A stretch of 64,000 nt of DNA from an uncultured Candidatus Saccharibacteria bacterium. Lineage in GTDB: Bacteria > Patescibacteriota > Minisyncoccia > Phycocordibacterales > G965230995. The notes below the pieces were generated by a model. That model was not told the DNA's origin and made no database searches. It worked only from the letters and a program-made list of their open reading frames with translations. The position numbers were made by a program, and so were the translations under genes. Positions 2,295 to 56,534 of the stretch are shown here, piece after piece (positions within the stretch are counted from its first letter, which is position 1; each line of letters begins with the position of its first letter). The stretch lies in NCBI GenBank assembly GCA_965230995.1, contig OZ246398.1, positions 592,213 to 656,212 on the forward strand, read 5' to 3'.

Positions 2295-2813
2295 ATGCCT
2301 GAAAATTCAGAAAAAGAAACACATATTTATTCAGCTAAAAGTAATATAGCTGGAAAGGGATTATTTACTTCAAAATTTATTAAAAAAAATGAACTTGCTT
2401 TTGTTATGCAAGGACCAATTATTAATTACCACCCAATAAACAAAGAGGAGGCTTGCCAATTACCAAACATTGTTGGTATTGAGAAGGATAAATATATTGA
2501 CCCAATTGAACCGTATGTTTACATTAATCACTCTTGTGAACCAAACCTTGCATATATCGTTGTAGATAAAAAACCACATTTTTATGCTCTTAGAGATATA
2601 GATTTAGGAGAAGAACTTACCTTTGATTACTCTATTTCAGAATATTCAGATTGGGAAATGACATGTAGTTGTGGATCAAAAAAGTGTAGGAAGGTTATTA
2701 AATCTGTAGAAAAGCTTCCTGTCGATTTTTTTGAACAATATTTTCCTTTTATTCCAGAATTTTTTCAAAAGGTCTTTTTTAATAACTATATAAACGCAAA
2801 AGATGAAAAATAA
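2295..2813 (+). CDS. SET-domain protein (putative protein lysine methyltransferase).
   Basis: NHSCEPN and ELTFDY motifs, plus a post-SET CxCGSKKCRK. Confidence 0.75.
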   Translation: MPENSEKETHIYSAKSNIAGKGLFTSKFIKKNELAFVMQGPIINYHPINKEEACQLPNIVGIEKDKYIDPIEPYVYINHSCEPNLAYIVVDKKPHFYALRDIDLGEELTFDYSISEYSDWEMTCSCGSKKCRKVIKSVEKLPVDFFEQYFPFIPEFFQKVFFNNYINAKDEK

Positions 2814-3139: not shown

Positions 3140-3607
3140 ATGAAAAAGATTTTTTCTTCAAAAAGTAGCATAGATAAAAGCGGAATTTTTGCTGGAGAAA
3201 ATTTTAAAAAAGGGGAATTTGTAGTAAAATTAACTGGAAAATATATTAAATGGAAGTATAATGAAAAGACAGACAGACAAAAATGCGCTAACTGGTTCGG
3301 AATAAAAAAAGACCATTGGATTGATCCAGACTTTCCATTGTCACAGATTAATCATTCATGTGATCCGAACATCGGAATTAAAGGTAGAATTATGTTCTAT
3401 GCTTTGCGCGATATAGGAAAAGGAGAAGAACTAACTTTTGACTATTCTACAGCTGAGGAGGAATCGGATTGGCAGATGAAGTGTAAATGTAAGTCAAAAA
3501 AATGTAGGAAGTTTGTTACCTCAATAATGTTTCTGCCTGATAAGGTTTTTAGATCATATTTACCATTTATACCAACATATTTTAAAAAATTGTATTTTAA
3601 AAAGTAA
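3140..3607 (+). CDS. SET-domain protein, paralog of 2295-2813.
   Basis: NHSCDPN and ELTFDY motifs, plus CKCKSKKCRK. Confidence 0.75.
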   Translation: MKKIFSSKSSIDKSGIFAGENFKKGEFVVKLTGKYIKWKYNEKTDRQKCANWFGIKKDHWIDPDFPLSQINHSCDPNIGIKGRIMFYALRDIGKGEELTFDYSTAEEESDWQMKCKCKSKKCRKFVTSIMFLPDKVFRSYLPFIPTYFKKLYFKK

Positions 3608-22055: not shown

Positions 22056-22205
22056 TTTTTCAAAATTTTATTTTTAGTAGGGGACAAAAATTTTGCATTT
22101 TAACAGAATACTATCTCTAATCTAGAAAAGAACCTTCGACTAGGCATTTATCATTTATAGCCAAAAAACGAGCTCAAAACTGAGCTAGGACGAATTCAAG
22201 GAAAG

Positions 22206-22237
22206 ACAGATGACTACTTAGTCATCTTCTTTTTATT
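22206..22237 (+). terminator. Rho-independent terminator.
   Basis: agatgacta/tagtcatct stem followed by a T-run. Confidence 0.55.
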
Positions 22238-22442
22238 TAAAAATTCAATTTATTGAATATTTAAAAAATTTTAGAGAAAAATGATTTTGCTAGTCGGATA
22301 GAGAGTGAAGGGAATTAAAATAATTATTTATTTAGATAAATTATTATTTTAATATTAATATTTTTTATTTATTTAATTAGAGGGAATATGTATTTGGCTC
22401 AATATTAATATAAATAATAACCCAGCCATATTCTTTATTTAT

Positions 22443-22471
22443 TGTGTCGCAAAAGATATATTGTGCGACAC
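22443..22471. promoter_or_regulatory. Perfect 9-bp inverted repeat TGTGTCGCA-N11-TGCGACACA in an AT-rich spacer.
   Basis: Isolated palindrome with no coding context. Candidate operator or recombination site. Confidence 0.35.
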
Positions 22472-22599
22472 ATATCTAGTATTCCCCTTTAATAAACTAG
22501 TGAGTGAATTAACGCAAAAATATTTTCTATAAATGGTTACTTATTAATTGTTTATCCCCCAAGTCCTCTGGCTTGGGGGAAATTTGTGCACGATATTGT

Positions 22600-23040
22600 T
22601 TAGTGTTGCAAGCACTTTCTTCCACCTCGAATGTAGCAGTTGTGATTGCCGTCATGACCAGAGACGAGGATCTGTACAACCTCACTCAAGAATGTACAGA
22701 AGCCCTCTGCGGATTGCACCGACTGCCCTCTCCATTCGATAACACCACCCGAAAAGAGCTTGATGTTATCTACCACGATTGAACGTCGAGAAAAGTCACC
22801 AGCATCAGACTCTCTTTCAATCAAGACCTCCTCGACACGGCAAATGCAAAGAGTCATTGATGGCGCATCGAAGATTCCTGGTTCCTCAGTATCACCGAGA
22901 AACCAGTTAAGGTCAGAAAGTGTCTTGCAGTGACGCATCCCATTAGACTCGATCGCCTTCACGATTCGAAGGGTTGAACTGGTCGCACCGACAAGAAGCT
23001 CAAGTGAAGCATCTTTTCTAACGATGTTGATTTCCATCAC
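22600..23040 (-). CDS. Hypothetical protein in a GC-rich island.
   Basis: GGGAG SD before a GTG/ATG start. No recognisable motifs. Confidence 0.45.
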   Translation of the reverse strand: MMEINIVRKDASLELLVGATSSTLRIVKAIESNGMRHCKTLSDLNWFLGDTEEPGIFDAPSMTLCICRVEEVLIERESDAGDFSRRSIVVDNIKLFSGGVIEWRGQSVQSAEGFCTFLSEVVQILVSGHDGNHNCYIRGGRKCLQH

Positions 23041-23256
23041 GTTAATGTCTCCCTTTGGGGGTATGGAGAAGTTTCAAGGTTCAGAACAAGAAGCTAGGAG
23101 ATATCCAAGACCTAATTATACACCCACCAGAATTTTATACAATCAATTAAAAGAATGGGGCTTCCTTCGCAATATATAACAAAACAATAAGGCCCGAGGG
23201 CGGCCTTATTGCCGACACTCGGGTCGTTGGTTGCCAATAGATATTGGCCCCTCTAC

Positions 23257-23589
23257 CTATGCAATCCGACTGCCTCGCTTCCTCGCCCCGAATCTAATAA
23301 CGGGCGGAAGCCCCTTTCTAAGGTCTGTGATGACCTTTCGAGACACGAGTGCCCTGAAAGCACAGTAGCCGACTGCTGTAAGTTGCAAAACAAAAAACAA
23401 GGCACAAATAATACTGATGATGATACCGTCCTCGATCTGAACAAAGACGTAGTACCAGTATCCGATAAAGACGAGTGTCTGTACATCAACGGATACCTCA
23501 GAAAGACGGCGCCGAAAGATAAAAACAAAACAGTACCAAGCCGCCACCGCAAGTGTCACGAAGGGTTGCAGAAGGATGTCGTTCAACAT
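23257..23589 (-). CDS. Small 3-TM membrane protein (holin-like size).
   Basis: AAGGAG SD 8 nt before the ATG (MLNDILL...). Three hydrophobic helices. The opposite-strand ORF 23209-23628 was judged spurious. Confidence 0.5.
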   Translation of the reverse strand: MLNDILLQPFVTLAVAAWYCFVFIFRRRLSEVSVDVQTLVFIGYWYYVFVQIEDGIIISIICALFFVLQLTAVGYCAFRALVSRKVITDLRKGLPPVIRFGARKRGSRIA

Positions 23590-23643
23590 GGCAAGGTTCT
23601 CCTTGGTTACAAAAGTACAATACAATAAATCAAGACAAAAAAC

Positions 23644-23676
23644 AAGACGCCCCGTAAGGGGCGTCTTGTTTTTTAT
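23644..23676. terminator. Bidirectional GC hairpin terminator.
   Basis: aagacgcccc-gtaa-ggggcgtctt, with T-runs on both strands. Confidence 0.65.
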
Positions 23677-24084
23677 TTAGTTAGAAGCAACTTGCAAAGA
23701 CTTTGACCAACACTTTGATGATGCGCTCCATGGCTGGAGACCTTGCTTATCATAAAGATATTTACCATAAGCGAGGTTACCCTCAAGTGTTTCGATATCA
23801 AGACCAAGCTTTTCAGCAGTCTTTCTGTGATAAAATTCGTTGATTTGCATCACTCCAATATCACGATTATCGACTTTTCCTCTTAGAACTTCACCTGAAG
23901 CTGTGAAGTGCGTAAGTGATGACTCACATTTCGCAACCTCAACTAGTACTGGTGTTTCCTTATAATACTGGATTACGATGTCCTTAGTATTTAGAGGAAT
24001 GTCTGTCTTTGTTGTTGATTCTGTCGAAGTGCCTTCTGTTACAGGTGCATTGTCATTTGGCAACGCGTTATTTCCTGTAAACAT
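23677..24084 (-). CDS. Transglycosylase-like (Rpf/lysozyme-like) domain protein without a signal peptide.
   Basis: AKCESS...GVMQIN...W..S.KCW pattern resembling the Rpf/transglycosylase-like catalytic core. No N-terminal hydrophobic segment. Confidence 0.5.
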   Translation of the reverse strand: MFTGNNALPNDNAPVTEGTSTESTTKTDIPLNTKDIVIQYYKETPVLVEVAKCESSLTHFTASGEVLRGKVDNRDIGVMQINEFYHRKTAEKLGLDIETLEGNLAYGKYLYDKQGLQPWSASSKCWSKSLQVASN

Positions 24085-33258: not shown

Positions 33259-33297
33259 CACCCGCCGAAGGCTCTGCCTTCGGCGGGTTTCGTTTCT
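33259..33297. terminator. Bidirectional GC hairpin terminator.
   Basis: cccgccgaagg-ctct-gccttcggcggg followed by ttt. Confidence 0.7.
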
Positions 33298-33299
33298 GC

Positions 33300-33560
33300 T
33301 CAGTTGAGGTGTTTGGAATCGTAGATCTCCTTGCTTTTAGCGAGAAAGAGATTCCTCAAATCACCCAGAACTGCCAGAAACTTGGGGTAGGCTTCGGGAT
33401 GACGAGGCGAGATGTAAACAGAGACGTTTACACCAACACCGTTGCGAGAGAGTTCGAACCGAAGACCTTCGATTCGAAGATTCTTCATCACCATCTCGAC
33501 AGCACACAAAGAGACCATCTCCTCGACAGAAAACACGTGATCAGCATTGCGAGTACACAT
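33300..33560 (-). CDS. Hypothetical small protein (86 aa) in a GC-rich island.
   Basis: GGAGGGGG SD 6 nt before the ATG (MCTRNADHVF...). A TTTCCA-aagc-TGGAAA palindrome lies upstream. Confidence 0.4.
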   Translation of the reverse strand: MCTRNADHVFSVEEMVSLCAVEMVMKNLRIEGLRFELSRNGVGVNVSVYISPRHPEAYPKFLAVLGDLRNLFLAKSKEIYDSKHLN

Positions 33561-33812
33561 CTCGGCCCCCTCCGTTAAAGAACTAGTTTCCAGAATCACC
33601 ATGACTCTGGAAACTAGGAGCAAATATTGCGCATAATTTCCAAAGCTGGAAACAGAAAGTCCCCTTTCGGGGACTTTCTTTACGCAATTAACGATTTTTA
33701 GACTATTTCAGTTTTTGCATACAAAGAAAGCTCCCGAAGGGGATTCCCAGCAGCAGACCCAAAACTGAAATATTTAACTTCATAAATTAATAATATCAAC
33801 TAAATGTTTGCT

Positions 33813-33846
33813 GTCAAACAAAAAGGGTGCGCGCAAGGCACACCCA
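33813..33846 (-). terminator. Rho-independent terminator on the minus strand.
   Basis: gggtgtgc-cttgc-gcgcaccc followed by a T5 run on the minus strand. Confidence 0.55.
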
Positions 33847-33856
33847 CACAAAAGGA

Positions 33857-34051
33857 TCAGGGCTGACGGAGTGAAAAAGTGCCATCGGGCAACTTCACCA
33901 CACCAGCCTTCTCCATACCCAAATTGAACCACCTCCTCGCAAGCTGTTGGTCCTCCGCAGGCATTTTCGGAATGGAAGGACCATTTTGAAATGCCAAGAA
34001 AATCCGATTAGGATCAGGAGAACCGACTTGCACTACAGTTTGTTCGCTCAT
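33857..34051 (-). CDS. Hypothetical small protein (64 aa), co-regulated with the PDT-like gene.
   Basis: GTGGAGG SD 6 nt before ATG (MSEQTVVQ...). GC-rich. Own copy of the conserved upstream operator. Confidence 0.45.
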   Translation of the reverse strand: MSEQTVVQVGSPDPNRIFLAFQNGPSIPKMPAEDQQLARRWFNLGMEKAGVVKLPDGTFSLRQP

Positions 34052-34081
34052 ACCAAACCTCCACACAATGTTGTTGACGTT

Positions 34082-34158
34082 AAAGAACTATTGGTACAAC
34101 ATTTTGTACCAAAATGTAGCTACGTAAATACATAACGACATTTTGATAAAAAACAAAA
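34082..34158 (-). promoter_or_regulatory. Promoter/operator region, copy A. Contains the palindrome GGTACAAC-ATTT-TGTACC.
   Basis: About 75 nt, near-identical to 35081-35157. Both lie upstream of minus-strand genes. Confidence 0.55.
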
Positions 34159-34210
34159 TTAATTTTGGGCTGGGCTGTCGTTTCTCTCCGACAGCCCTTC
34201 CCAATTTGAC

Positions 34211-35062
34211 TCAGTCCCTCACCTCAAAGGGACCAAAGATTTGGTTTTTTGTCACACACAAAGAGAAGAGCTTGCGAGCAATACGAAACCTCCACAGAGC
34301 ACTCCGCTTCATCTCGACTTCGACGCCGAAATGATACGTGCCGTTCTCGATATGAACAGAATGAATCTGCGTCATATTAATCCCGAGAAGCACAAGCGGA
34401 GTGAGAGCAAGCCACAGAGCCCCAGGTATGTTGTGTACCTGGAACGTGAGCACTGCTCTGTTCGTCTTGCCCACCGCCCCAGACACACCACCCGGTGCAA
34501 GCAGGTAGAATGTCGTGACGGCCGGTTCGTCTTCGAATCCCTCGATGAGGACATCGAGACCATAGACCTGGGCGTTCGCAACCGGCCCGAGACAAGCCCA
34601 GTTCTGGTAGCTTTCGTCCTCGGCTACCAATCTCGATGCTTCGCCATTGCTCGGAACCTCCATCGTTTTGACTTGAAGACTACCGACCTTCGCCTTGCAT
34701 GCACCAAAGGACTTTTGATGCCCGATGATGCCAGCGACCTGCTCGATACTCATACCCTTCCTCGCCATCAAGGCAAAAGTAATGGGCATTTTGTATCCAG
34801 CAACGATCGCAGGTACACTGCCCGTGCGAAGAAGAGCGATAAGCGCATCGAGAGACTCGGTCACGCGACCCTGAGCCAGAGTCTCGACAGCAAGAGCGCC
34901 CCAAGCCGATTTCGTCATCACCACAGACACAACATCACCATTTCTGGCAGTCGGAATGTAGTTTCGATCGGAAACAGCAGGAGCCCCAAAGTTCTGGACG
35001 AAGTACTCATATGCTACATGAGTAAACGTAGAACCAAACGGCCCGAGATAAGTAACATTCAT
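34211..35062 (-). CDS. pheA: Prephenate dehydratase-like protein (PDT domain plus C-terminal ACT domain).
   Basis: N-terminal VTYLGPFGSTFTHVAY, a TTF motif corresponding to the catalytic TRF, and an ACT-like C-terminus with the ESRP motif diverged. GC-rich. Confidence 0.6.
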   Translation of the reverse strand: MNVTYLGPFGSTFTHVAYEYFVQNFGAPAVSDRNYIPTARNGDVVSVVMTKSAWGALAVETLAQGRVTESLDALIALLRTGSVPAIVAGYKMPITFALMARKGMSIEQVAGIIGHQKSFGACKAKVGSLQVKTMEVPSNGEASRLVAEDESYQNWACLGPVANAQVYGLDVLIEGFEDEPAVTTFYLLAPGGVSGAVGKTNRAVLTFQVHNIPGALWLALTPLVLLGINMTQIHSVHIENGTYHFGVEVEMKRSALWRFRIARKLFSLCVTKNQIFGPFEVRD

Positions 35063-35080
35063 CGTAGATCCCTCTCTTTA

Positions 35081-35157
35081 GTGTGATTGTAAAGAACTCT
35101 CGGTACAACGTTTTGTACCAAAGTGTTGCTGTGTAATACATAGCGACATTTTGATAC
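35081..35157 (-). promoter_or_regulatory. Promoter/operator region, copy B. Contains the palindrome GGTACAAC-GTTT-TGTACC.
   Basis: Direct-repeat copy of 34082-34158. Confidence 0.55.
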
Positions 35158-35180
35158 AAAACAAAAGCCCCGCTTACGCG
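35154..35180. terminator. GC hairpin terminator, with a degenerate second copy at 35218-35245.
   Basis: aaaagccccgc-ttac-gcggggctttt. Confidence 0.6.
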
Positions 35181-35314
35181 GGGCTTTTGCTGTAGTTTCA
35201 TTTCTCTTTTTTAAATACTAGCAAAATTCCCCGCTACGCGGTTATATGCAAAAAAGAAAAATGAAAACCAATTTGACTTCATATTTAAATACTATCAGTT
35301 TAGAGTATTTTTTG

Positions 35315-36385
35315 TCAAATACCCTTTTCTATTCTCTTACAGATATCAGAAATGATATGCGGGCCTTCGTATATCATCCCAGTAATCAATTGCACCAAGT
35401 CTGCGCCGGCATTAATTTTTTCTATCGCATCATCGGCACTCATAATTCCACCACAACCGATAATGGTCATTTTGTTTCCGACTTTTGATCTGGTTTTTTT
35501 AATTAATTTTGTCGACAATTCTCTGCATGGATCACCAGACATTCCACCTCTCGCCTTTCCGCTTGCTTCTTCGGGATGTTTTAGACAAGATATTTCTTTG
35601 TTTAGATTTCCAATCACATATCCTTTTACAAAAGGAAATTTAAGCGACACATCAATTAATTTTGAAAAATCTTCCCATTCGAGATTTATTGGCATTTTCA
35701 AATATACAGGTTTATCTGTTTTAATTTTAGCCAATTGCACAAGGAGCATTTGGAGAGCGTGCGGTGTTGCATATGCTTCGCCACAATATGAATTTGGGCA
35801 AGAAATATTTATGGTGTAATAGTCGCCTATTTTTTCTTTGTTCAGTCTTTCAAAAGAATATACATAATCCTCTACCCCACCCTCGAGAGTTTTACACAAG
35901 ACATCATTCGTTCTTGCTATGCTCACACCAATAACAAAATCCTTCGGTATATGTGATTTTTTAATTCTACGAATTACAGTATCAACTCCATCGTTTCGGA
36001 GACCTTTTCTCACGATAATACTTCCTGATTTTTTGAGCCTAATTAAACGAGGCTTTCTATTCCCTTCACAAGCTCTCGCTGTGACAGAGCCGATTTCTTC
36101 ACCACCAAAACCGAGCGAAGCAAGTATCCCTGTAAGTTTTCCATTGTAATCAAAACCAGCAGAAAGCAGGACTGGCGTTTTGTATTTTATTCCATCAATT
36201 GTTTTTGAAATGTCTTTGCCATGATACCCATACAACAAAGAAATAATTTTTCTACTGATAGAAAAATACCCAAGTAATCTTCCTTTTGCAATGAAAATAT
36301 TATGAACAAATTCCGGATCAAAGATAAACAGAAATGGTTTTAGGATATAGCGGTATAAAAATTTCATATAGGCATTATATATCAA
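35315..36385 (-). CDS. pyrD: Dihydroorotate dehydrogenase (class 2-like).
   Basis: TIM-barrel motifs NISCPNS and IGCGGI, with an N-terminal membrane-association helix. Confidence 0.75.
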   Translation of the reverse strand: MIYNAYMKFLYRYILKPFLFIFDPEFVHNIFIAKGRLLGYFSISRKIISLLYGYHGKDISKTIDGIKYKTPVLLSAGFDYNGKLTGILASLGFGGEEIGSVTARACEGNRKPRLIRLKKSGSIIVRKGLRNDGVDTVIRRIKKSHIPKDFVIGVSIARTNDVLCKTLEGGVEDYVYSFERLNKEKIGDYYTINISCPNSYCGEAYATPHALQMLLVQLAKIKTDKPVYLKMPINLEWEDFSKLIDVSLKFPFVKGYVIGNLNKEISCLKHPEEASGKARGGMSGDPCRELSTKLIKKTRSKVGNKMTIIGCGGIMSADDAIEKINAGADLVQLITGMIYEGPHIISDICKRIEKGI

Positions 36386-37640: not shown

Positions 37641-38213
37641 ATGAAAATTTTAGAACATAAAGCAAAAGTATTTGGTCAAGAATGTAAGCTTGAACTTATG
37701 CATTTTAATAAAAATGATGGAAAGGAATGGAAAAGAATTTTTGATATTTGGAAAGAGTTAAAGCTTGGTTTGAGAGGTTATAAATCCCGTGAACCAAATA
37801 TGCCTGAGGGCTTATCAGAAGTCGCCTTTTGTCTTTGGTCGGGTTCTGCGAGATATATAAAATTAAAAGGCGCCAAGAAAGGAATAGCTGGTTCATTTGA
37901 TACTTTTAATTTAAAGTCAAACAAGGCTCAACAAATAAAAGCTTGTAGTATTGAAGATGATCTAACTTCCTTTGGACCAAAATCAAAATGGGACGATTTG
38001 TATTTTGTGGATTTTTATAACGGCGGTAAAATTGATGGTAAATTTGATATCTATTTAATTCCTAATAAATACATCAAAAATCAATCATTGAATAAGAAAG
38101 AATCTTTTACAGATCAGCAGGCACAAAAAAGACGACCTCGTTTTGGAATTAAAAAACAAATTATTACAAAATATAAAATCAAACCTCTAGCTAGTAAGGT
38201 AAAAGTTTGGTAA
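37641..38213 (+). CDS. Putative type II restriction endonuclease (hypothetical).
   Basis: Position follows the C gene and is convergent with the MTase. No clear family match. Possible degenerate D...(E/Q)xK. Confidence 0.35.
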   Translation: MKILEHKAKVFGQECKLELMHFNKNDGKEWKRIFDIWKELKLGLRGYKSREPNMPEGLSEVAFCLWSGSARYIKLKGAKKGIAGSFDTFNLKSNKAQQIKACSIEDDLTSFGPKSKWDDLYFVDFYNGGKIDGKFDIYLIPNKYIKNQSLNKKESFTDQQAQKRRPRFGIKKQIITKYKIKPLASKVKVW

Positions 38214-39791
38214 TTACTCCATTGCTTTCATCATTTGTTTTGCTACAGCTTCAACGACAGGTACACTCACAGAATTTCCAGCTTGTTTGTATAGTGCTGA
38301 GTCAGATATTTTTGGTAAAATATAATCTTTTGGAAAACCCTGTATCCTAAAGCATTCTAATGGTGTCAGCTTTCGGATGCCTTTCTTGTCCTTAATAATT
38401 GGAACATTGTGCCCACCTGTACCCATGTTTGCGGTTAATGTCGGACAAACTCCACTTTTATTTTCCCTTACATATTGCCTTCTCCATTGATAAACTTTAC
38501 CTTCCTCTTTTACTACATTTTTAAGTTTCTCAAACAATGGTTTACCGTTGTAATAATATTTTTCTGAGACATTACTCTCTAATAAATCAGTTATTTTTGT
38601 TGTTAATTTAATTGGGCTTGGAAACTCAAACCTATCTAAATATATTTTGTTCTTAAAACCAACAATATAAATTCTTTCACGATTTTGAGGAATATTTCCG
38701 TATTCCATTGTGTTTAGGACTTTTACTTTTACATGATAACCCAGGTCTTTTAATGCATCCTCAATAATTTTAAAAGTTTTTCCACCATCATGACTTTTTA
38801 GATTCTTAACATTTTCTAAAAGAAAACCTTCTGGTTTTCTTGCTTCCAAAATACGAGCAATATCAAAAAATAAGTTTCCTCTACCCTTCTCATCATTAAA
38901 CCCCTGTCTATATCCCGCAATAGAAAATGCCTGGCAAGGAAAACCACCTAAAAGAAAATCGAACTTTGGGAGATCATCTATTCCAATTTTTCTTATATCC
39001 TCGACAACCAATTTTGAATCTCTAAAATTCAGATCATAAGTATCCTTACATCGTGTTTCAAAATCGTTTGCAAAAACAGTTTTAAACCCTGCGTTTTCAA
39101 AGCCCAAGCGAATACCACCAACTCCAGCAAATAAATCTATTGTTTTAAACCCATGTTTTGTTTTCTTTTGCTCAAATTCTTTAGGTTCATTATTTGGGTT
39201 ACTAATAACCTGAATTACAACACCCCGAACCTCTACGAACTCTCTAAAAAGAGATTTCATATTTGGGTTCCTTGGTTCAAGTCTGAACCTATCTTTTTCT
39301 TTATAAAGTCTTTTAAGAGTTGCTTCATTTTCGTCAATAATTGCAACAACGGTTTGTCCATTTTCTGCAACAGATTGCTGTTTTATAACAACAATATCGC
39401 CATCAAAAATTCCGTCATCAATCATAGAATCACCCACAACACGGAGGGCATAATATCCTTCGGCTGTTTTAATTTGAGGATTGATTACAGAAACAGAGCC
39501 ATCTCTTTCTTCAATTGCTGGAAGTGGATATCCGGCTTTTATACTTCCAATTATTGGAATTTCTACAATTGACCTTATTTCTTTTTTAGGAGCTAAACTT
39601 CTAGCGGAATTTTCTGATTTTGAAAGATATCCCTTTGTCTTTAGTGAATTGATATGTTCGTGAACTGTAGATACTGCTTTTAGTTTTAGTTTTTTTCTTA
39701 TTTCCTCGATAGTGGGAGCTATACCATTTTCACCAATATATAGATTTATAAAGTCAAAGACTTGTTTTTGTTTTTTTGTAAGGCTTGGCAT
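38214..39791 (-). CDS. LexA (HTH plus S24 autoprotease) fused to a DNA cytosine-5 methyltransferase.
   Basis: LexA part, aa 1-~200: LexA DNA-binding domain, cleavage site IKAG, catalytic GDSM Ser and TLKRL Lys. MTase part, aa ~205-525: motif I DLFAGVGG, motif IV GFPCQAFS, ENV, QNRERIYIVG, RKLTPLECFRIQGFP. Single uninterrupted ORF with no internal start. Confidence 0.75.
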   Translation of the reverse strand: MPSLTKKQKQVFDFINLYIGENGIAPTIEEIRKKLKLKAVSTVHEHINSLKTKGYLSKSENSARSLAPKKEIRSIVEIPIIGSIKAGYPLPAIEERDGSVSVINPQIKTAEGYYALRVVGDSMIDDGIFDGDIVVIKQQSVAENGQTVVAIIDENEATLKRLYKEKDRFRLEPRNPNMKSLFREFVEVRGVVIQVISNPNNEPKEFEQKKTKHGFKTIDLFAGVGGIRLGFENAGFKTVFANDFETRCKDTYDLNFRDSKLVVEDIRKIGIDDLPKFDFLLGGFPCQAFSIAGYRQGFNDEKGRGNLFFDIARILEARKPEGFLLENVKNLKSHDGGKTFKIIEDALKDLGYHVKVKVLNTMEYGNIPQNRERIYIVGFKNKIYLDRFEFPSPIKLTTKITDLLESNVSEKYYYNGKPLFEKLKNVVKEEGKVYQWRRQYVRENKSGVCPTLTANMGTGGHNVPIIKDKKGIRKLTPLECFRIQGFPKDYILPKISDSALYKQAGNSVSVPVVEAVAKQMMKAME

Positions 39792-45149: not shown

Positions 45150-45222
45150 TATCCCACTTGATATATATTGTATTACATTTCATCCCACTTTACAAAACAT
45201 GTTATCCACATTTGCCCACAAA
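45150..45222 (-). promoter_or_regulatory. MraZ-box array: five direct repeats of (A)AGTGG(G/A)A on the mraZ strand, phased at about 10-21 bp.
   Basis: Plus-strand CCAC/CCCAC cores at 45154, 45163, 45184, 45206 and 45215. They lie 25-95 bp upstream of the mraZ start. Confidence 0.6.
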
Positions 45223-45294
45223 AATATGGCTCTGTTTAGCAACAAAAAACAGCTCCATTTTTTTGGAGCTGTTTTTTGTTTTAAATTTATTTTG

Positions 45295-55001: not shown

Positions 55002-56534
55002 ATGAAAAACGACACAACAAAACAAATCCAGAAGGCTCTCGGCTCTCTTGTTCGTAACATAAGAGAAGAAAAAAATATTACCCAAGCAGATTTTGCAAAG
55101 AAACTTGGCACAACACAGAGCGCCGTTGCACGTATGGAAAATGGCGAACAAAACCTCAGCACTGCAATGCTCGAGAAAATAAGTGAGACTCTAAAAAGAG
55201 ACCTCGTTCACATATCAGACGGTGCCCTAAATATAAAAATCGAGGGCGGACATCCATTGTCTGGTGAAATTACAACCAAAACCTCAAAAAATGGTGCAAT
55301 GGGACTTTTGGCTGCTTCCCTATTAAATAAAGGCACAACCATATTAAAAAACGTTCCAAAAATAGAAGAAGTAAACCGAATGGTAGAAGTCTTCGAAAGT
55401 ATTGGCATTTCAATGAAATGGCGAGGAAATGATTTGGAAATAAATCCACCAGAAAAACTTTCTTTGGAAAAATTGAACAAAGACTCTGCTTCCAAAACAA
55501 GAAGCATAGTTATGTTGATCGGACCATTAATCCACCACCTAAATAATTTCTCTCTTCCAGAACCAGGTGGATGCAAATTAGGTTCGAGAACTGTGAGACC
55601 ACATTTCTATGCCCTTGAAAATCTCGGAGTAGATATTAAAGCCACATCAAATAGCTATGAAATTTCATACAAAAAATTAAAACCAGCAGAAATCATTCTC
55701 TATGAATCTGGTGATACAGTAACAGAAAACGCGATAATTGCTGCCGCTGGTATTCCAGGAAAAACAGTCATCAAATACGCTTCTGCCAACTATATGGGGC
55801 AAGAGGTCTGCCATTTTCTCGAGGAGCTCGGAGTAAAAATCGAAGGAATTGGTACGACAACAATTACAGTCCACGGTCAAAGTGACATAAACAAATCTGT
55901 TACATATTCCCTTTCCGAAGACCCAATTGAATCTATGTTCTTTATTGCAGTAGCAATAGTCACAAATTCAAATATCACAATAAAAAGATGCCCCATTGAT
56001 TTTCTCGAGATTGAACTTCTCAAATTAGAAAAAATGGGATTCAAATACAAGAAATCAAAAAGATACAAAGCAAACAACGGTAAAACAGATTTGGTTGACA
56101 TAGAAACTTTCCCTTCGAAACTAAAAGCTCTCGAAGAAAAAATTCACCCGAATGTCTATCCGGGACTAAATATGGACAACCTTCCGTTCTTTACTGTAAT
56201 AGCCACCCAAGCAAAAGGTATGACTCTGATACACGACTGGGTATATGAAAAAAGAGCAATATATTTCAAGGATCTAGAAAAACTTGGAGCAGACATACTT
56301 CTCGCCGACCAACACAGATTGTTTATAAAAGGACCAACAGAATTAAAACCAGCCGAAGTAATCTGTCCGCCTGCCCTAAGACCAGGTGCCGTAATCCTAA
56401 TAGGAATGCTCGGAGCCAAAGGAACATCAATACTTCGAAACATCTACAGCATAAACAGAGGTTATGAGGATATAGTCGAGAGATTGAACAGTATAGGTGC
56501 AAAAATACGCATATTAAGAGAAATAGAAAGATAG
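55002..56534 (+). CDS. murA: XRE-type HTH domain fused to UDP-GlcNAc 1-carboxyvinyltransferase (MurA).
   Basis: N-terminal ~70 aa HTH_3 (ITQADFAKKLGTTQSAVARMENG). EPT-fold body with GGHPLSGEITTKTSKNGAMGLLAASLL and active-site loop GGCKLGSRTVRPH (Cys conserved). Confidence 0.75.
   Translation: MKNDTTKQIQKALGSLVRNIREEKNITQADFAKKLGTTQSAVARMENGEQNLSTAMLEKISETLKRDLVHISDGALNIKIEGGHPLSGEITTKTSKNGAMGLLAASLLNKGTTILKNVPKIEEVNRMVEVFESIGISMKWRGNDLEINPPEKLSLEKLNKDSASKTRSIVMLIGPLIHHLNNFSLPEPGGCKLGSRTVRPHFYALENLGVDIKATSNSYEISYKKLKPAEIILYESGDTVTENAIIAAAGIPGKTVIKYASANYMGQEVCHFLEELGVKIEGIGTTTITVHGQSDINKSVTYSLSEDPIESMFFIAVAIVTNSNITIKRCPIDFLEIELLKLEKMGFKYKKSKRYKANNGKTDLVDIETFPSKLKALEEKIHPNVYPGLNMDNLPFFTVIATQAKGMTLIHDWVYEKRAIYFKDLEKLGADILLADQHRLFIKGPTELKPAEVICPPALRPGAVILIGMLGAKGTSILRNIYSINRGYEDIVERLNSIGAKIRILREIER

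What the first reader, a model, noticed from the sequence alone, without database searches (positions are those of the whole stretch)
33300..35250. GC-rich mini-island: prephenate-dehydratase-like gene plus small ORFs under duplicated palindromic operators
Three minus-strand genes sit in a GC-richer block bounded by GC hairpin terminators: a PDT+ACT protein of 283 aa, a 64-aa ORF and an 86-aa ORF.

The PDT-like gene and the 64-aa gene each have their own ~75-nt upstream region. The two regions are near-identical copies (34082-34158 vs 35081-35157), and each contains the perfect palindrome GGTACAAC-N4-TGTACC. This implies a common, unidentified repressor or activator.

The ACT domain lacks the canonical ESRP Phe-binding motif. 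A stand-alone prephenate dehydratase is odd for a reduced genome with (apparently) little amino-acid biosynthesis.
Basis: partly seen in the sequence, partly recalled or inferred. Interest (0 to 1): 0.6.

Follow-up and report, generated by a model that had tools for sequence, protein, structure and literature searches.

The report
Phenylalanine-sensing leader controls pheA-like gene
The GC-rich mini-island is real, but the pheA-like gene is most likely switched by a short phenylalanine-rich leader peptide with a terminator/antiterminator RNA just upstream, a classical mechanism seen here in a reduced-genome (Patescibacteria-type) bacterium, and the duplicated "operators" look like copied pieces of that RNA leader.

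Summary
Window 33290-35320 carries three minus-strand ORFs with foreign codon usage. These are a PDT+ACT protein (283 aa) and two orphan ORFs (64 and 86 aa). A 78-nt upstream segment is duplicated and contains the perfect palindrome GGTACAA-N4-TTGTACC.

At 35154-35318 there is a promoter, a leader ORF starting about 7 nt after the -10 box (MKSNWFSFFFFAYNRVAGNFASI), an antiterminator and a strong terminator. Rfam Phe_leader matches it over its full length at 53.3 bits (threshold 55).

Phe-rich leader peptides followed by terminators also precede most homologues of this protein that I examined, in loci that are Patescibacterial wherever an organism is named. Phe-sensing attenuation is therefore a conserved trait of this divergent PDT subfamily (TRF changed to TTF, IEN to ET, ESRP to HSVH).

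The duplicated module begins in the terminator's U-tract and lies 170 nt from any promoter. As RNA it folds into a longer hairpin that competes with the palindrome. The third gene carries a different hairpin at the same position, next to the shared AGTTCTTTA box. I read the module as a copied distal RNA leader, not a protein operator, but this is not proven.

The function of the two small ORFs remains unknown.

The parts
35289..35318 (-). Promoter-like site P1: TTGACA, 18-nt spacer, TAGTAT. The -10 box ends 6 nt before the leader AUG, so a leaderless transcript is predicted.
   Evidence: Consensus scan, 10 of 12 matches. The same 6-nt spacing between the -10 box and the start codon appears for 14 of 23 leaders examined, and 6-8 nt for 20 of 23.
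35211..35282 (-). pheL-like leader ORF: MKSNWFSFFFFAYNRVAGNFASI plus stop. The Phe codon run is at 35244-35270.
   Evidence: It is the only short ORF in the whole window with 5 Phe in 7 residues. It lies within the Rfam Phe_leader match 35158-35283, 53.3 bits.
35195..35216 (-). A-rich segment that pairs with the Phe-codon run in untranslated RNA (the long 1:2 stem).
   Evidence: Minimum-free-energy folds. The same stem is in the Rfam Phe_leader consensus alignment.
35220..35234 (-). Antiterminator 5' arm GCGGGGAAUUUUGCU. It pairs with 35178-35191 (AGCAAAAGCCCCGC), which is the 5' arm of the terminator.
   Evidence: Duplex energy -21.7 kcal/mol. The analogous helix in the related leader family is 90.8% paired, with one covarying pair.
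35154..35189 (-). Attenuator terminator: CAAAAGCCCCGCG-UAAG-CGCGGGGCUUUUG followed by UUUUGUAU.
   Evidence: Terminator scan, 12 pairs. Hairpin energy -22.7 kcal/mol.
35090..35166 (-). Repeat module, copy B (distal PDT leader). It runs from the U-tract through a long AU-rich hairpin (35110-35162) and the palindrome 35102-35119 to the box AGTTCTTTA (35090-35098).
   Evidence: 82-nt module -25.5 kcal/mol, z = -4.7.
34211..35062 (-). PDT+ACT protein of 283 aa, a divergent pheA-like subfamily. Signature residues are ET (E60-T61) in place of EN, TTF (183-185) in place of TRF, and HSVH in place of ESRP.
34165..34204 (-). GC-rich hairpin after the PDT stop codon. The U-run starts only about 6 nt after the stem, so it is probably a weak terminator or a stabiliser.
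   Evidence: Inverted repeat I10. Fold. The terminator scan did not flag it on the minus strand.
34081..34158 (-). Repeat module, copy A, in front of the 64-aa ORF. Long hairpin 34101-34154, palindrome 34093-34110, box 34081-34089.
   Evidence: -19.8 kcal/mol, z = -4.0.
33857..34051 (-). 64-aa orphan ORF (MSEQTVVQVG...), with GGAGG 7 nt upstream of the ATG.
   Evidence: Only a self hit in 5.8 billion protein clusters. No Pfam, NCBIfam or PHROG match. AlphaFold2 pLDDT 71, and no significant fold match.
33825..33845 (-). Intrinsic terminator after the 64-aa ORF.
33790..33817 (-). Promoter-like site P3: TTGACA, 16-nt spacer, TATTAT with an upstream TG. The -10 box ends 6 nt before the leader AUG.
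   Evidence: 11 of 12 matches. It is homologous to P1 and the start of leader 1.
33703..33783 (-). Second leader ORF: MKLNISVLGLLLGIPFGSFLCMQKLK. It is a diverged copy of the leader 1 start and has no Phe run.
   Evidence: Its Leu richness is not distinctive in this window.
33648..33735 (-). Terminator-like hairpin GAAAGUCCCC-GAAA-GGGGACUUUC followed by UGUUUCC (33648-33681), and its competing antiterminator arm GGGAGCUUUCUUUG (33722-33735), which lies inside the leader ORF.
   Evidence: Folds with and without a masked ribosome footprint. The 311-nt region has z = -7.6.
33576..33617 (-). 16-bp hairpin (33583-33617) directly followed by the same box, AGTTCTTTAAC.
   Evidence: -23.4 kcal/mol, z = -6.9.
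33300..33560 (-). 86-aa orphan ORF, with GGAGGGGG upstream. It shows codon periodicity like the PDT gene.
   Evidence: Only self hits, apart from weak matches to repeat linkers of two long repetitive proteins, in the exhaustive HMMER search. Codon-position GC is 0.55/0.33/0.54. AlphaFold2 pLDDT 67; best fold match E = 0.45.
33260..33288 (.). Bidirectional GC hairpin terminator shared with the convergent YqeY-like gene. It marks the right-hand end of the island.

Best explanation
The island is a horizontally acquired expression unit inducible by phenylalanine starvation. Its core is a ribosome-mediated transcription attenuator of the pheL-pheA type.

**Proposed mechanism (inferred from sequence and folding)**
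- Transcription starts at, or within 1-2 nt of, the AUG of a 23-codon leader ORF containing F-S-F-F-F-F.
- When Phe-tRNA is plentiful, the ribosome runs to the stop codon, or the untranslated Phe-codon run pairs with the A-rich tract. The GC hairpin at 35162-35189 plus its U-tract then forms and terminates transcription.
- When Phe-tRNA is scarce, the ribosome stalls on the Phe codons. Segment 35220-35234 pairs with the 5' arm of the terminator, and RNA polymerase reads through into the PDT+ACT gene. It probably continues past a weak hairpin into the 64-aa ORF.

**The duplicated 78-nt "operator" module**
- It is the distal part of this RNA leader: U-tract, then alternative AU-rich hairpins, then the AGUUCUUUA box, then the Shine-Dalgarno sequence.
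- It was copied in front of the 64-aa ORF.
- A third, more diverged copy of the whole regulatory cassette drives the 86-aa ORF. That copy comprises a promoter, a leader ORF starting at the predicted transcription start, a terminator/antiterminator, and a hairpin plus box.

**Shown versus inferred**
- Shown: the sequence features, the Rfam match, the conservation of Phe leaders upstream of the homologues, and the competing folds.
- Inferred: the transcription start, the stalling logic, co-transcription of the 64-aa ORF, RNA-level function of the repeat module, and enzymatic activity of the protein.
For: **Rfam match**
- Phe_leader RF01859 matches 35158-35283(-) over the full model (1-125) at 53.3 bits, E = 1.4e-7. 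The stems are in the right places.

**Leader ORF**
- The ORF MKSNWFSFFFFAYNRVAGNFASI is the only 5-in-7 Phe short ORF in 64 kb.

**Competing structures**
- Antiterminator -21.7 kcal/mol against terminator -22.7 kcal/mol. The antiterminator would form first during transcription.

**Conservation in homologues**
- Phe-rich leader ORFs followed by a GC hairpin and TTTTGTTTT lie about 150-220 nt upstream of the PDT-like gene. My screen found them in 21 of 31 loci examined, and more by eye.
- A 21-nt core of that leader found 9 metagenome contigs. Eight have a PDT-like gene directly downstream. The ninth contig ends just after the start codon of the next ORF.
- Terminator pairs in that family are 91.9% paired with covariation above the shuffles. 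Antiterminator pairs are 90.8% paired, against 31-58% for slid controls.

**Promoter spacing**
- The -10 box ends 6 nt before the leader start codon in 14 of 23 leaders, including both window units, and 6-8 nt before it in 20 of 23.

**Evidence that the repeat module acts as RNA**
- There is no promoter-like site in or near either copy.
- The repeat begins in a terminator U-tract.
- The long hairpin is favoured over the palindrome.
- The flanks of the palindrome stem differ by A-to-G changes that keep G-U pairing (9 and 10 pairs).
- The third cassette has an unrelated 16-bp hairpin at the same position relative to the identical box TAAAGAACT. The only three copies of that box in the window sit in front of the three genes.
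- The heptamer GTTCTTT lies 22-40 nt upstream of the PDT start in 6 of 36 distinct foreign loci, against about 0.4 expected.

**Cassette homology**
- The promoter and leader start of unit C align with those of unit B.
Against: - The Rfam score is 1.7 bits below the gathering threshold.
- The window leader scores only 15.2 bits (E = 0.5) against a covariance model built from the related Patescibacterial leaders. Its kinship to either family is therefore architectural, not demonstrated homology.
- There are no transcript data. The transcription start, termination and read-through are all predicted.
- At equilibrium the terminator is slightly more stable than the antiterminator in every masked fold, so the model depends on co-transcriptional kinetics.
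- For the repeat module there are only two copies. Of their 8 differences inside the long hairpin, 3 keep a pair, 3 break one, and 2 fall at unpaired positions (my reading). Selection on RNA structure is therefore not shown.
- A hand-made weight matrix of the wider box is not specific in the window.
- Hallmark PDT residues are altered, so dehydratase activity is not assured.
- The second leader has no diagnostic codon run.
Confidence: 0.72

Rival explanations
1. The palindromes GGTACAA-N4-TTGTACC are DNA operators for one dimeric repressor or activator that co-regulates the PDT-like gene and the 64-aa gene.
For: - The palindrome is a perfect 7-4-7 inverted repeat, conserved exactly in both copies while the loop and flanks vary.
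- Such symmetry is typical of operators bound by helix-turn-helix dimers.
- In one related locus, a TrpR-family gene lies two genes upstream of the PDT homologue (L007).
- The single-sequence model of the 86-aa ORF weakly resembles PadR/MarR winged-helix proteins (best E = 0.45).
Against: - No promoter-like site lies within about 170 nt of either copy on the coding strand. Copy B sits behind an intrinsic terminator, and copy A directly follows a coding region.
- The third co-located gene has a different hairpin at the same position.
- The stem extensions differ by changes compatible with G-U pairing.
- The palindrome is absent from all PDT homologue loci, from JGI metagenomes and from IMG/VR.
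- The fold matches are not significant, and both small proteins are roughly neutral in charge (by inspection).
Confidence: 0.13
2. The 78-nt repeat is a duplicated weak promoter region, so that PDT and the 64-aa ORF each have their own transcription start downstream of the attenuator.
For: - The 64-aa ORF has no other recognisable promoter.
- Both copies contain TTGTTT, a 16-nt spacer, then TATGTA (by inspection).
Against: - That pair matches only 6 of 12 consensus positions, lacks the invariant final T of the -10 box, and was not reported by the scan.
- The two clear promoters of the island are near-consensus TTGACA types.
- A constitutive promoter downstream of the terminator would defeat a leader that is conserved in most homologues examined.
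Confidence: 0.08
3. Only the leader and the PDT gene are functional. The 64-aa and 86-aa ORFs, their copied leaders and the second leader ORF are decaying or fortuitous by-products of local duplications in foreign GC-rich DNA. This is not exclusive of the best explanation for the PDT unit.
For: - Both ORFs have no homologue among 5.8 billion clusters, and the 86-aa ORF has none in 1.8 billion representatives read exhaustively.
- GC-rich DNA here keeps long ORFs open on both strands. Examples are 281 aa antisense to PDT and 89 aa antisense to the 86-aa ORF.
- Gene callers disagree on the 86-aa ORF, giving 86 aa, 99 aa or no call.
- The 64-aa ORF shows weak codon periodicity.
Against: - Both ORFs have strong, correctly spaced Shine-Dalgarno sequences, their own terminators and the shared box.
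- The 86-aa ORF shows codon-position GC and RNY periodicity like the PDT gene.
- The leader of cassette C retains a well-formed terminator/antiterminator pair.
Confidence: 0.3
4. Cassette C is a type I toxin-like module. The 26-aa hydrophobic peptide MKLNISVLGLLLGIPFGSFLCMQKLK would be a small membrane toxin encoded on a highly structured mRNA.
For: - The peptide is short and hydrophobic with a basic C-terminus.
- The RNA is strongly structured (z = -7.6).
- Weak promoter-like sites exist on the opposite strand.
Against: - Its promoter and first codons are homologous to the Phe leader.
- It is followed by a terminator/antiterminator pair and a downstream ORF with a Shine-Dalgarno sequence, which is the anatomy of an attenuator.
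- No Rfam toxin-antitoxin RNA matches meaningfully.
Confidence: 0.04

Closest known systems
Enterobacterial pheL-pheA attenuator (Rfam RF01859 Phe_leader; pheL genes reviewed in PMC3082878)
   Same: - A short leader ORF with a run of Phe codons.
- A long stem between the Phe-codon run and an A-rich tract.
- An antiterminator that competes with a GC hairpin plus U-tract terminator.
- Location directly upstream of a prephenate-dehydratase-family gene.
- A full-length structural match at 53.3 bits.
   Different: - The score is below the gathering threshold of 55.
- There is no blastn similarity to any E. coli genome.
- The host is a reduced-genome Patescibacteria-type bacterium, not a gammaproteobacterium.
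- The leader ORF appears to be translated from a leaderless start.
- The regulated protein lacks a chorismate mutase domain and has altered hallmark residues.
- About 100 nt of extra structured leader lies between the terminator and the gene.
Conserved Phe leader of the Patescibacterial PDT-like genes, defined here (alignment A6, model R1). No description was found in the papers searched.
   Same: - The same gene family lies downstream.
- A Phe-rich leader ORF sits next to a promoter, with the -10 box about 6 nt upstream.
- A GC terminator is followed by TTTTGTTTT.
- An antiterminator GGG(U)GAAUU..GC pairs with the terminator's 5' arm.
- A GTTCTTT-type box precedes the start codon in a subset of loci.
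   Different: - The window leader lacks the conserved core UCGGAAAACCGAAGGGUGAAUUAGCGUUGUA and scores only 15.2 bits.
- The nine family leaders I tested do not match Rfam Phe_leader at all.
- The repeat module and the two extra cassettes are unique to this genome.
Canonical prephenate dehydratase with ACT domain (PheA; PF00800 plus ACT; PDB 3mwb, 2qmx, 6vh5)
   Same: - Full-length collinear alignment, PDT fold plus a C-terminal ACT-like region.
- The catalytic Thr of the TRF motif and the GAL motif are kept.
   Different: - IEN is changed to ET, TRF to TTF and ESRP to HSVH. The first two changes are invariant, and the third invariant or nearly so, in the 11-member subfamily alignment.
- The NCBIfam equivalog score is 98.7 against a cutoff of 219.
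- The subfamily was found only in Patescibacteria-labelled or unclassified MAGs.
Leaderless short-ORF attenuators of mycobacteria (Cys-responsive; recalled from memory, not checked here)
   Same: A regulatory leader peptide is translated from a leaderless transcript start and controls downstream genes according to amino-acid supply.
   Different: The amino acid and the phylum differ. A Rho-independent terminator/antiterminator pair is evident here.

Membership tests
Rfam RF01859 Phe_leader | Covariance-model score at or above the curated gathering score (55 bits) | tested here: not met
   53.3 bits, E = 1.4e-7, full-length match at 35158-35283(-). It is not listed in the gathering-threshold scan of the window.
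Rfam RF01859 Phe_leader | Leader ORF with a run of Phe codons | tested here: met
   MKSNWFSFFFFAYNRVAGNFASI at 35211-35282(-).
Rfam RF01859 Phe_leader | Mutually exclusive antiterminator and intrinsic terminator | tested here: met
   Terminator at 35162-35189 plus U-tract. Antiterminator duplex -21.7 kcal/mol shares the terminator's 5' arm. This is computational only.
Rfam RF01859 Phe_leader | Response of read-through to Phe-tRNA supply | not testable with these tools
   Needs reporter or in vitro transcription-translation assays.
   15.2 bits, E = 0.52. It ranks second in the window, behind an unrelated terminator.
Prephenate dehydratase (Pfam PF00800 / NCBIfam PRK11898) | Pfam gathering score for the PDT domain | tested here: met
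   78.3 bits against 25.2, residues 3-188.
Prephenate dehydratase (Pfam PF00800 / NCBIfam PRK11898) | NCBIfam equivalog cutoff (the score needed to call it the same function) | tested here: not met
   98.7 bits against a cutoff of 219.
Prephenate dehydratase (Pfam PF00800 / NCBIfam PRK11898) | Hallmark residues: Asn of the IEN motif, and Thr-Arg-Phe | tested here: not met
   The catalytic Thr183 and Phe185 are kept. Asn is changed to Thr61 and Arg to Thr184, invariantly in the subfamily. The catalytic roles of these residues are from my own knowledge of E. coli P-protein mutagenesis.
Prephenate dehydratase (Pfam PF00800 / NCBIfam PRK11898) | ACT domain with GALV/ESRP Phe-binding motifs | tested here: not met
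   Pfam ACT scores 14.6 bits against 27. PGAL is present, but ESRP is replaced by HSVH.
Prephenate dehydratase (Pfam PF00800 / NCBIfam PRK11898) | Dehydratase/decarboxylase activity on prephenate | not testable with these tools
   Needs an enzyme assay.
Protein-bound palindromic operator | Position overlapping or adjacent to a promoter or transcription start | tested here: not met
   The nearest promoter-like site on the coding strand is about 170 nt upstream of copy B. None lies upstream of copy A.
Protein-bound palindromic operator | A cognate DNA-binding regulator | tested here: inconclusive
   No regulator gene lies in the island. The 86-aa ORF model gives only non-significant PadR/MarR-like matches. 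The rest of the 742-kb genome was not available.

The most novel reading that the evidence does not exclude
The Patescibacteria-specific PDT-like subfamily (EN changed to ET, TRF to TTF, ESRP to HSVH) may not be an ordinary prephenate dehydratase. It could be a Phe-starvation-induced salvage enzyme that makes Phe or phenylpyruvate from a precursor supplied by a host or partner, such as arogenate or prephenate, in cells lacking the shikimate pathway. In this genome, the shared hairpin-plus-AGUUCUUUA element in front of all three genes could be a second, still unknown RNA-level control. It would tie two lineage-specific small proteins to the same Phe response.
Probability: 0.15. Interest if true: 0.7.

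Novelty: new variant of a known kind. Interest (0 to 1): 0.5.

Why it matters
- **Regulation in reduced genomes.** Very little is known about regulation in Patescibacteria/CPR bacteria, which have tiny genomes and few biosynthetic pathways. A classical ribosome-mediated attenuator is conserved in front of one orphan enzyme in most loci examined. This shows that these cells monitor their own Phe-tRNA charging and invest in a Phe-related reaction.
- **A testable enzyme function.** It gives a direct handle on what the divergent PDT-like enzyme does, and on which precursor these organisms obtain from partners.
- **Annotation.** Annotators get a new cis-regulatory RNA family that Rfam did not detect in the nine family loci I tested.
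- **Gene evolution.** This genome shows how a regulatory leader can be copied to wire new orphan ORFs into an existing response.

Tried and rejected
**Homology of the small ORFs: nothing found**
- Word-indexed search of 5.8 billion clusters for both ORFs.
- Exhaustive HMMER search for the 86-aa ORF. It returned only repeat linkers of a 2670-aa Receptor-L/T9SS protein and one other long repetitive protein, which I judge uninformative.
- Pfam, NCBIfam and PHROGs.
- tblastn against all PDT loci.

**Structure of the small ORFs: nothing significant**
- AlphaFold2 models had pLDDT 67 and 71. The best Foldseek PDB matches were E = 0.45 and 0.49.
- The afdb50 library was unavailable.

**Other ideas tested and dropped**
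- The small ORFs as decayed PDT duplicates. No blastn or tblastx similarity.
- A chorismate mutase partner. It sits next to PDT only in L007, and neither small ORF resembles it.
- A repeat module elsewhere. The palindrome-plus-box pattern is absent from JGI metagenomes and IMG/VR.
- Island DNA in plasmids, phages or E. coli. No match.
- A family-wide weight matrix for the box. It is not specific, so I rely only on the exact heptamer statistic.
- A small peptide inside the repeat (MSLCI...). The reading frame differs between the two copies and there is no Shine-Dalgarno sequence, so I rejected it (and inspection).
- A Leu-specific reading of the second leader. Leu-rich short ORFs are common by chance in this window, so it is kept only as a possibility.
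- Population variation. L001-L003 are identical to the window.
- The first attempt at a genome scan failed because the alignment was too divergent.


Full report
**1. What is in the sequence**

The block 33290-35320 stands out by composition. GC is 0.44-0.51 there against 0.365 for the window.

It holds three minus-strand ORFs:
- a 283-aa ORF at 34211-35062;
- a 64-aa ORF at 33857-34051;
- an 86-aa ORF at 33300-33560.

Their third-codon-position GC is 0.57, 0.49 and 0.54, against 0.29-0.33 for the flanking RmuC, YqeY and dihydroorotate dehydrogenase genes. The coding parts therefore look foreign to this genome.

The duplicated upstream segment is real. It spans 34081-34158 and 35090-35166, at 85-94% identity with one indel.

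The exact palindrome GGTACAA-N4-TTGTACC occurs only at 34093-34110 and 35102-35119.

The 9-mer TAAAGAACT (AGTTCTTTA on the coding strand) occurs exactly three times in 64 kb. Each copy lies 20-33 nt upstream of one of the three start codons.

**2. The protein**

The 283-aa ORF is a significant but divergent member of the prephenate dehydratase family:
- Pfam PDT scores 78.3 bits.
- NCBIfam PRK11898 gives E = 3e-28 over the full length, but far below the equivalog cutoff (98.7 against 219).
- PDB 3mwb gives E = 5e-17.

About 20 relatives at 37-48% identity form a tight subfamily. Three hallmark motifs are replaced, the first two invariantly and the third invariantly or nearly so:
- IEN is changed to ET.
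- TRF is changed to TTF. The catalytic Thr is kept.
- ESRP of the ACT domain is changed to HSVH.

Two canonical outgroup sequences keep IEN, TRF and ESRP.

A scan of one genome per species found 29 loci. All are in Patescibacteria-labelled or unclassified MAGs: Paceibacterota, Taylor-, Nomura-, Azam- and Vogelbacteria, and auto-labelled "Saccharibacteria".

In those genomes the gene usually sits alone among housekeeping genes. Only one locus has a chorismate mutase next to it (L007).

The gene is GC-richer than its flanks almost everywhere, by 3-9 points. Here the difference is 16 points.

**3.

A permissive Rfam scan of the island gave a full-length match of 35158-35283(-) to Phe_leader (RF01859). 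The score is 53.3 bits against a gathering score of 55, with E = 1.4e-7.

On that strand the region reads as follows:
- A near-consensus promoter, TTGACA-18-TAGTAT, at 35318-35289.
- After 6 nt, an ORF encoding MKSNWFSFFFFAYNRVAGNFASI (35282-35211).
- A GC hairpin followed by UUUUGUUUUGUAU (35189-35154).

The folds behave as an attenuator should:
- In the free RNA, the Phe-codon run pairs with an A-rich tract and the terminator forms.
- The segment GCGGGGAAUUUUGCU can instead pair with the 5' arm of the terminator. That duplex is -21.7 kcal/mol, against -22.7 for the terminator hairpin.

This is the anatomy of ribosome-mediated attenuation as known for pheL-pheA (PMC3082878).

The leader is the only short ORF in the window with 5 Phe in 7 residues.

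**4. Conservation**

The decisive support comes from relatives.

- In 21 of 31 loci examined, and more by eye, a short ORF rich in Phe lies about 150-220 nt upstream of the PDT-like gene. Its consensus is fM-I-H-T-N-S-F-F-x-F-F-x-N-S-E-N-R-R-V-N. It is followed by a GC hairpin and TTTTGTTTT.
- A 21-nt core of this leader retrieved nine metagenome contigs. Eight have a PDT-like gene directly downstream. The ninth contig ends just after the start codon of the next ORF.
- On a 20-sequence alignment, the terminator is 91.9% paired, with covariation above all shuffles. The proposed antiterminator is 90.8% paired, against 31-58% for slid controls, with one covarying pair (GC in 11 sequences, AU in 5).
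- In 14 of 23 leaders, a -35/-10 pair ends 6 nt before the leader start codon, and in 20 of 23 it ends 6-8 nt before it. The leader peptides are probably translated from leaderless transcripts.

The window's own leader is an outlier. It scores only 15.2 bits against the covariance model of this family. The nine family leaders I tested do not match Rfam Phe_leader. The window leader has no blastn similarity to E. coli.

I therefore treat it as working like both families without being a demonstrated member of either.

I found no paper in the searched library that links leader-peptide attenuation or prephenate dehydratase with Patescibacteria or CPR bacteria.

**5. What the duplicated "operators" are**

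Copy B starts in the U-tract of the attenuator terminator and ends at the AGTTCTTTA box. Copy A starts after the hairpin that follows the PDT stop codon.

Several observations favour an RNA-level reading:
- Neither copy contains or adjoins a promoter-like site.
- As RNA, both copies fold best into a long hairpin, at -19.8 and -25.5 kcal/mol (z = -4.0 and -4.7). In it the left arm of the palindrome pairs with the U-tract/AUCAAAAUG region. The palindrome hairpin alone is worth -10 to -11 kcal/mol.
- The stem flanks differ by A-to-G changes that keep G-U pairs.
- The third gene has an unrelated 16-bp hairpin (-23.4 kcal/mol) at the same place, directly followed by the identical box.
- In one relative (L037), a hairpin followed by UUCUUUUAC looks like the leader's own terminator. 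The exact heptamer GTTCTTT lies 22-40 nt upstream of the start codon in 6 of 36 distinct foreign loci, against about 0.4 expected.

The simplest reading is that the module is the distal part of the RNA leader, and possibly a second, weak terminator/antiterminator stage. It was copied in front of the next ORF.

This reading is not proven:
- There are only two copies, and their differences do not show selection for pairing.
- A broader hand-made motif matrix was not specific.

A DNA operator remains possible, at about 0.13.

**6. The third cassette**

After the terminator of the 64-aa ORF comes a second near-consensus promoter, TTGACA-16-TATTAT at 33817-33790. Again after 6 nt, there is an ORF encoding MKLNISVLGLLLGIPFGSFLCMQKLK.

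The promoter and first codons align with those of the Phe leader, so this is a diverged duplicate. It keeps a terminator-like hairpin (33648-33681). An antiterminator arm lies inside the leader ORF (33722-33735).

It has three rare CUG Leu codons, but Leu-rich short ORFs are common here by chance. The amino acid it senses, if any, cannot be named.

**7. The small ORFs**

Both are orphans. They have no family, fold or phage-protein match. They show no similarity to the PDT gene.

In favour of real genes:
- Both have strong ribosome-binding sites, their own terminators and the shared box.
- The 86-aa ORF shows PDT-like codon periodicity.

Against:
- They are unique to this genome.
- GC-rich DNA here keeps ORFs open on both strands.

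Their function is unknown.

**8. Verdict**

- The operator interpretation is not supported.
- The most probable control is a Phe leader-peptide attenuator, a known mechanism. It is new for this phylum, for a divergent enzyme subfamily and in its leaderless form, and here its leader parts have been reused for two orphan ORFs.
- Interest is moderate.

Noticed in passing
window 22100-23650: About 1.5 kb has no convincing ORF, only overlapping ORFs of 50-146 aa on both strands. GC is higher than the genome average (0.43 for 23001-24000). There is no Rfam match at E <= 0.01. It could be an undescribed large non-coding RNA or a decayed gene.
   Followed up: partly
window 37641-39791: A single 525-aa ORF (38214-39791, minus strand) fuses a LexA DNA-binding domain, an S24 peptidase domain and a C5 cytosine DNA methylase. 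It lies next to a Bsp6I-like restriction endonuclease (37641-38213, plus strand). This looks like a restriction-modification system whose methylase carries a LexA-type self-cleaving repressor module.
   Followed up: no
window 2295-2813 and 3140-3607: Two neighbouring SET-domain ORFs (172 and 155 aa) lie next to two histidine-kinase-like ORFs.
   Followed up: no
window 55002-56534: A 510-aa ORF looks, by eye only, like an enolpyruvyl transferase (MurA/EPSP-synthase type), and its N-terminus looks like an XRE-type helix-turn-helix. It was not scanned against Pfam.
   Followed up: no
Related loci L004-L052 (for example L018 2830-2950, L014 2820-2950, L048 6600-6730): A conserved leader RNA precedes PDT-like genes of Patescibacteria. 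Its core is UCGGAAAACCGAAGGGUGAAUUAGCGUUGUA, followed by a terminator. Rfam did not detect it in the nine loci tested. In 8 of 9 metagenome contigs carrying the core, a PDT-like gene follows directly; the ninth contig is cut off.
   Followed up: yes
window 45170-45282 (+): This was the best hit (20.9 bits, E = 0.03) of the leader-family covariance model in the window. It is a hairpin plus T-run between the MraW and GreA genes, with no Phe-rich ORF. It is most likely just a bidirectional terminator.
   Followed up: partly
L007 2434-2748 and 6005-6304: In one relative, the PDT-like gene is followed by a 99-aa chorismate mutase (CM_2). A Trp-repressor-family gene lies two genes upstream. This is the only locus seen with additional aromatic-pathway genes.
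   Followed up: partly
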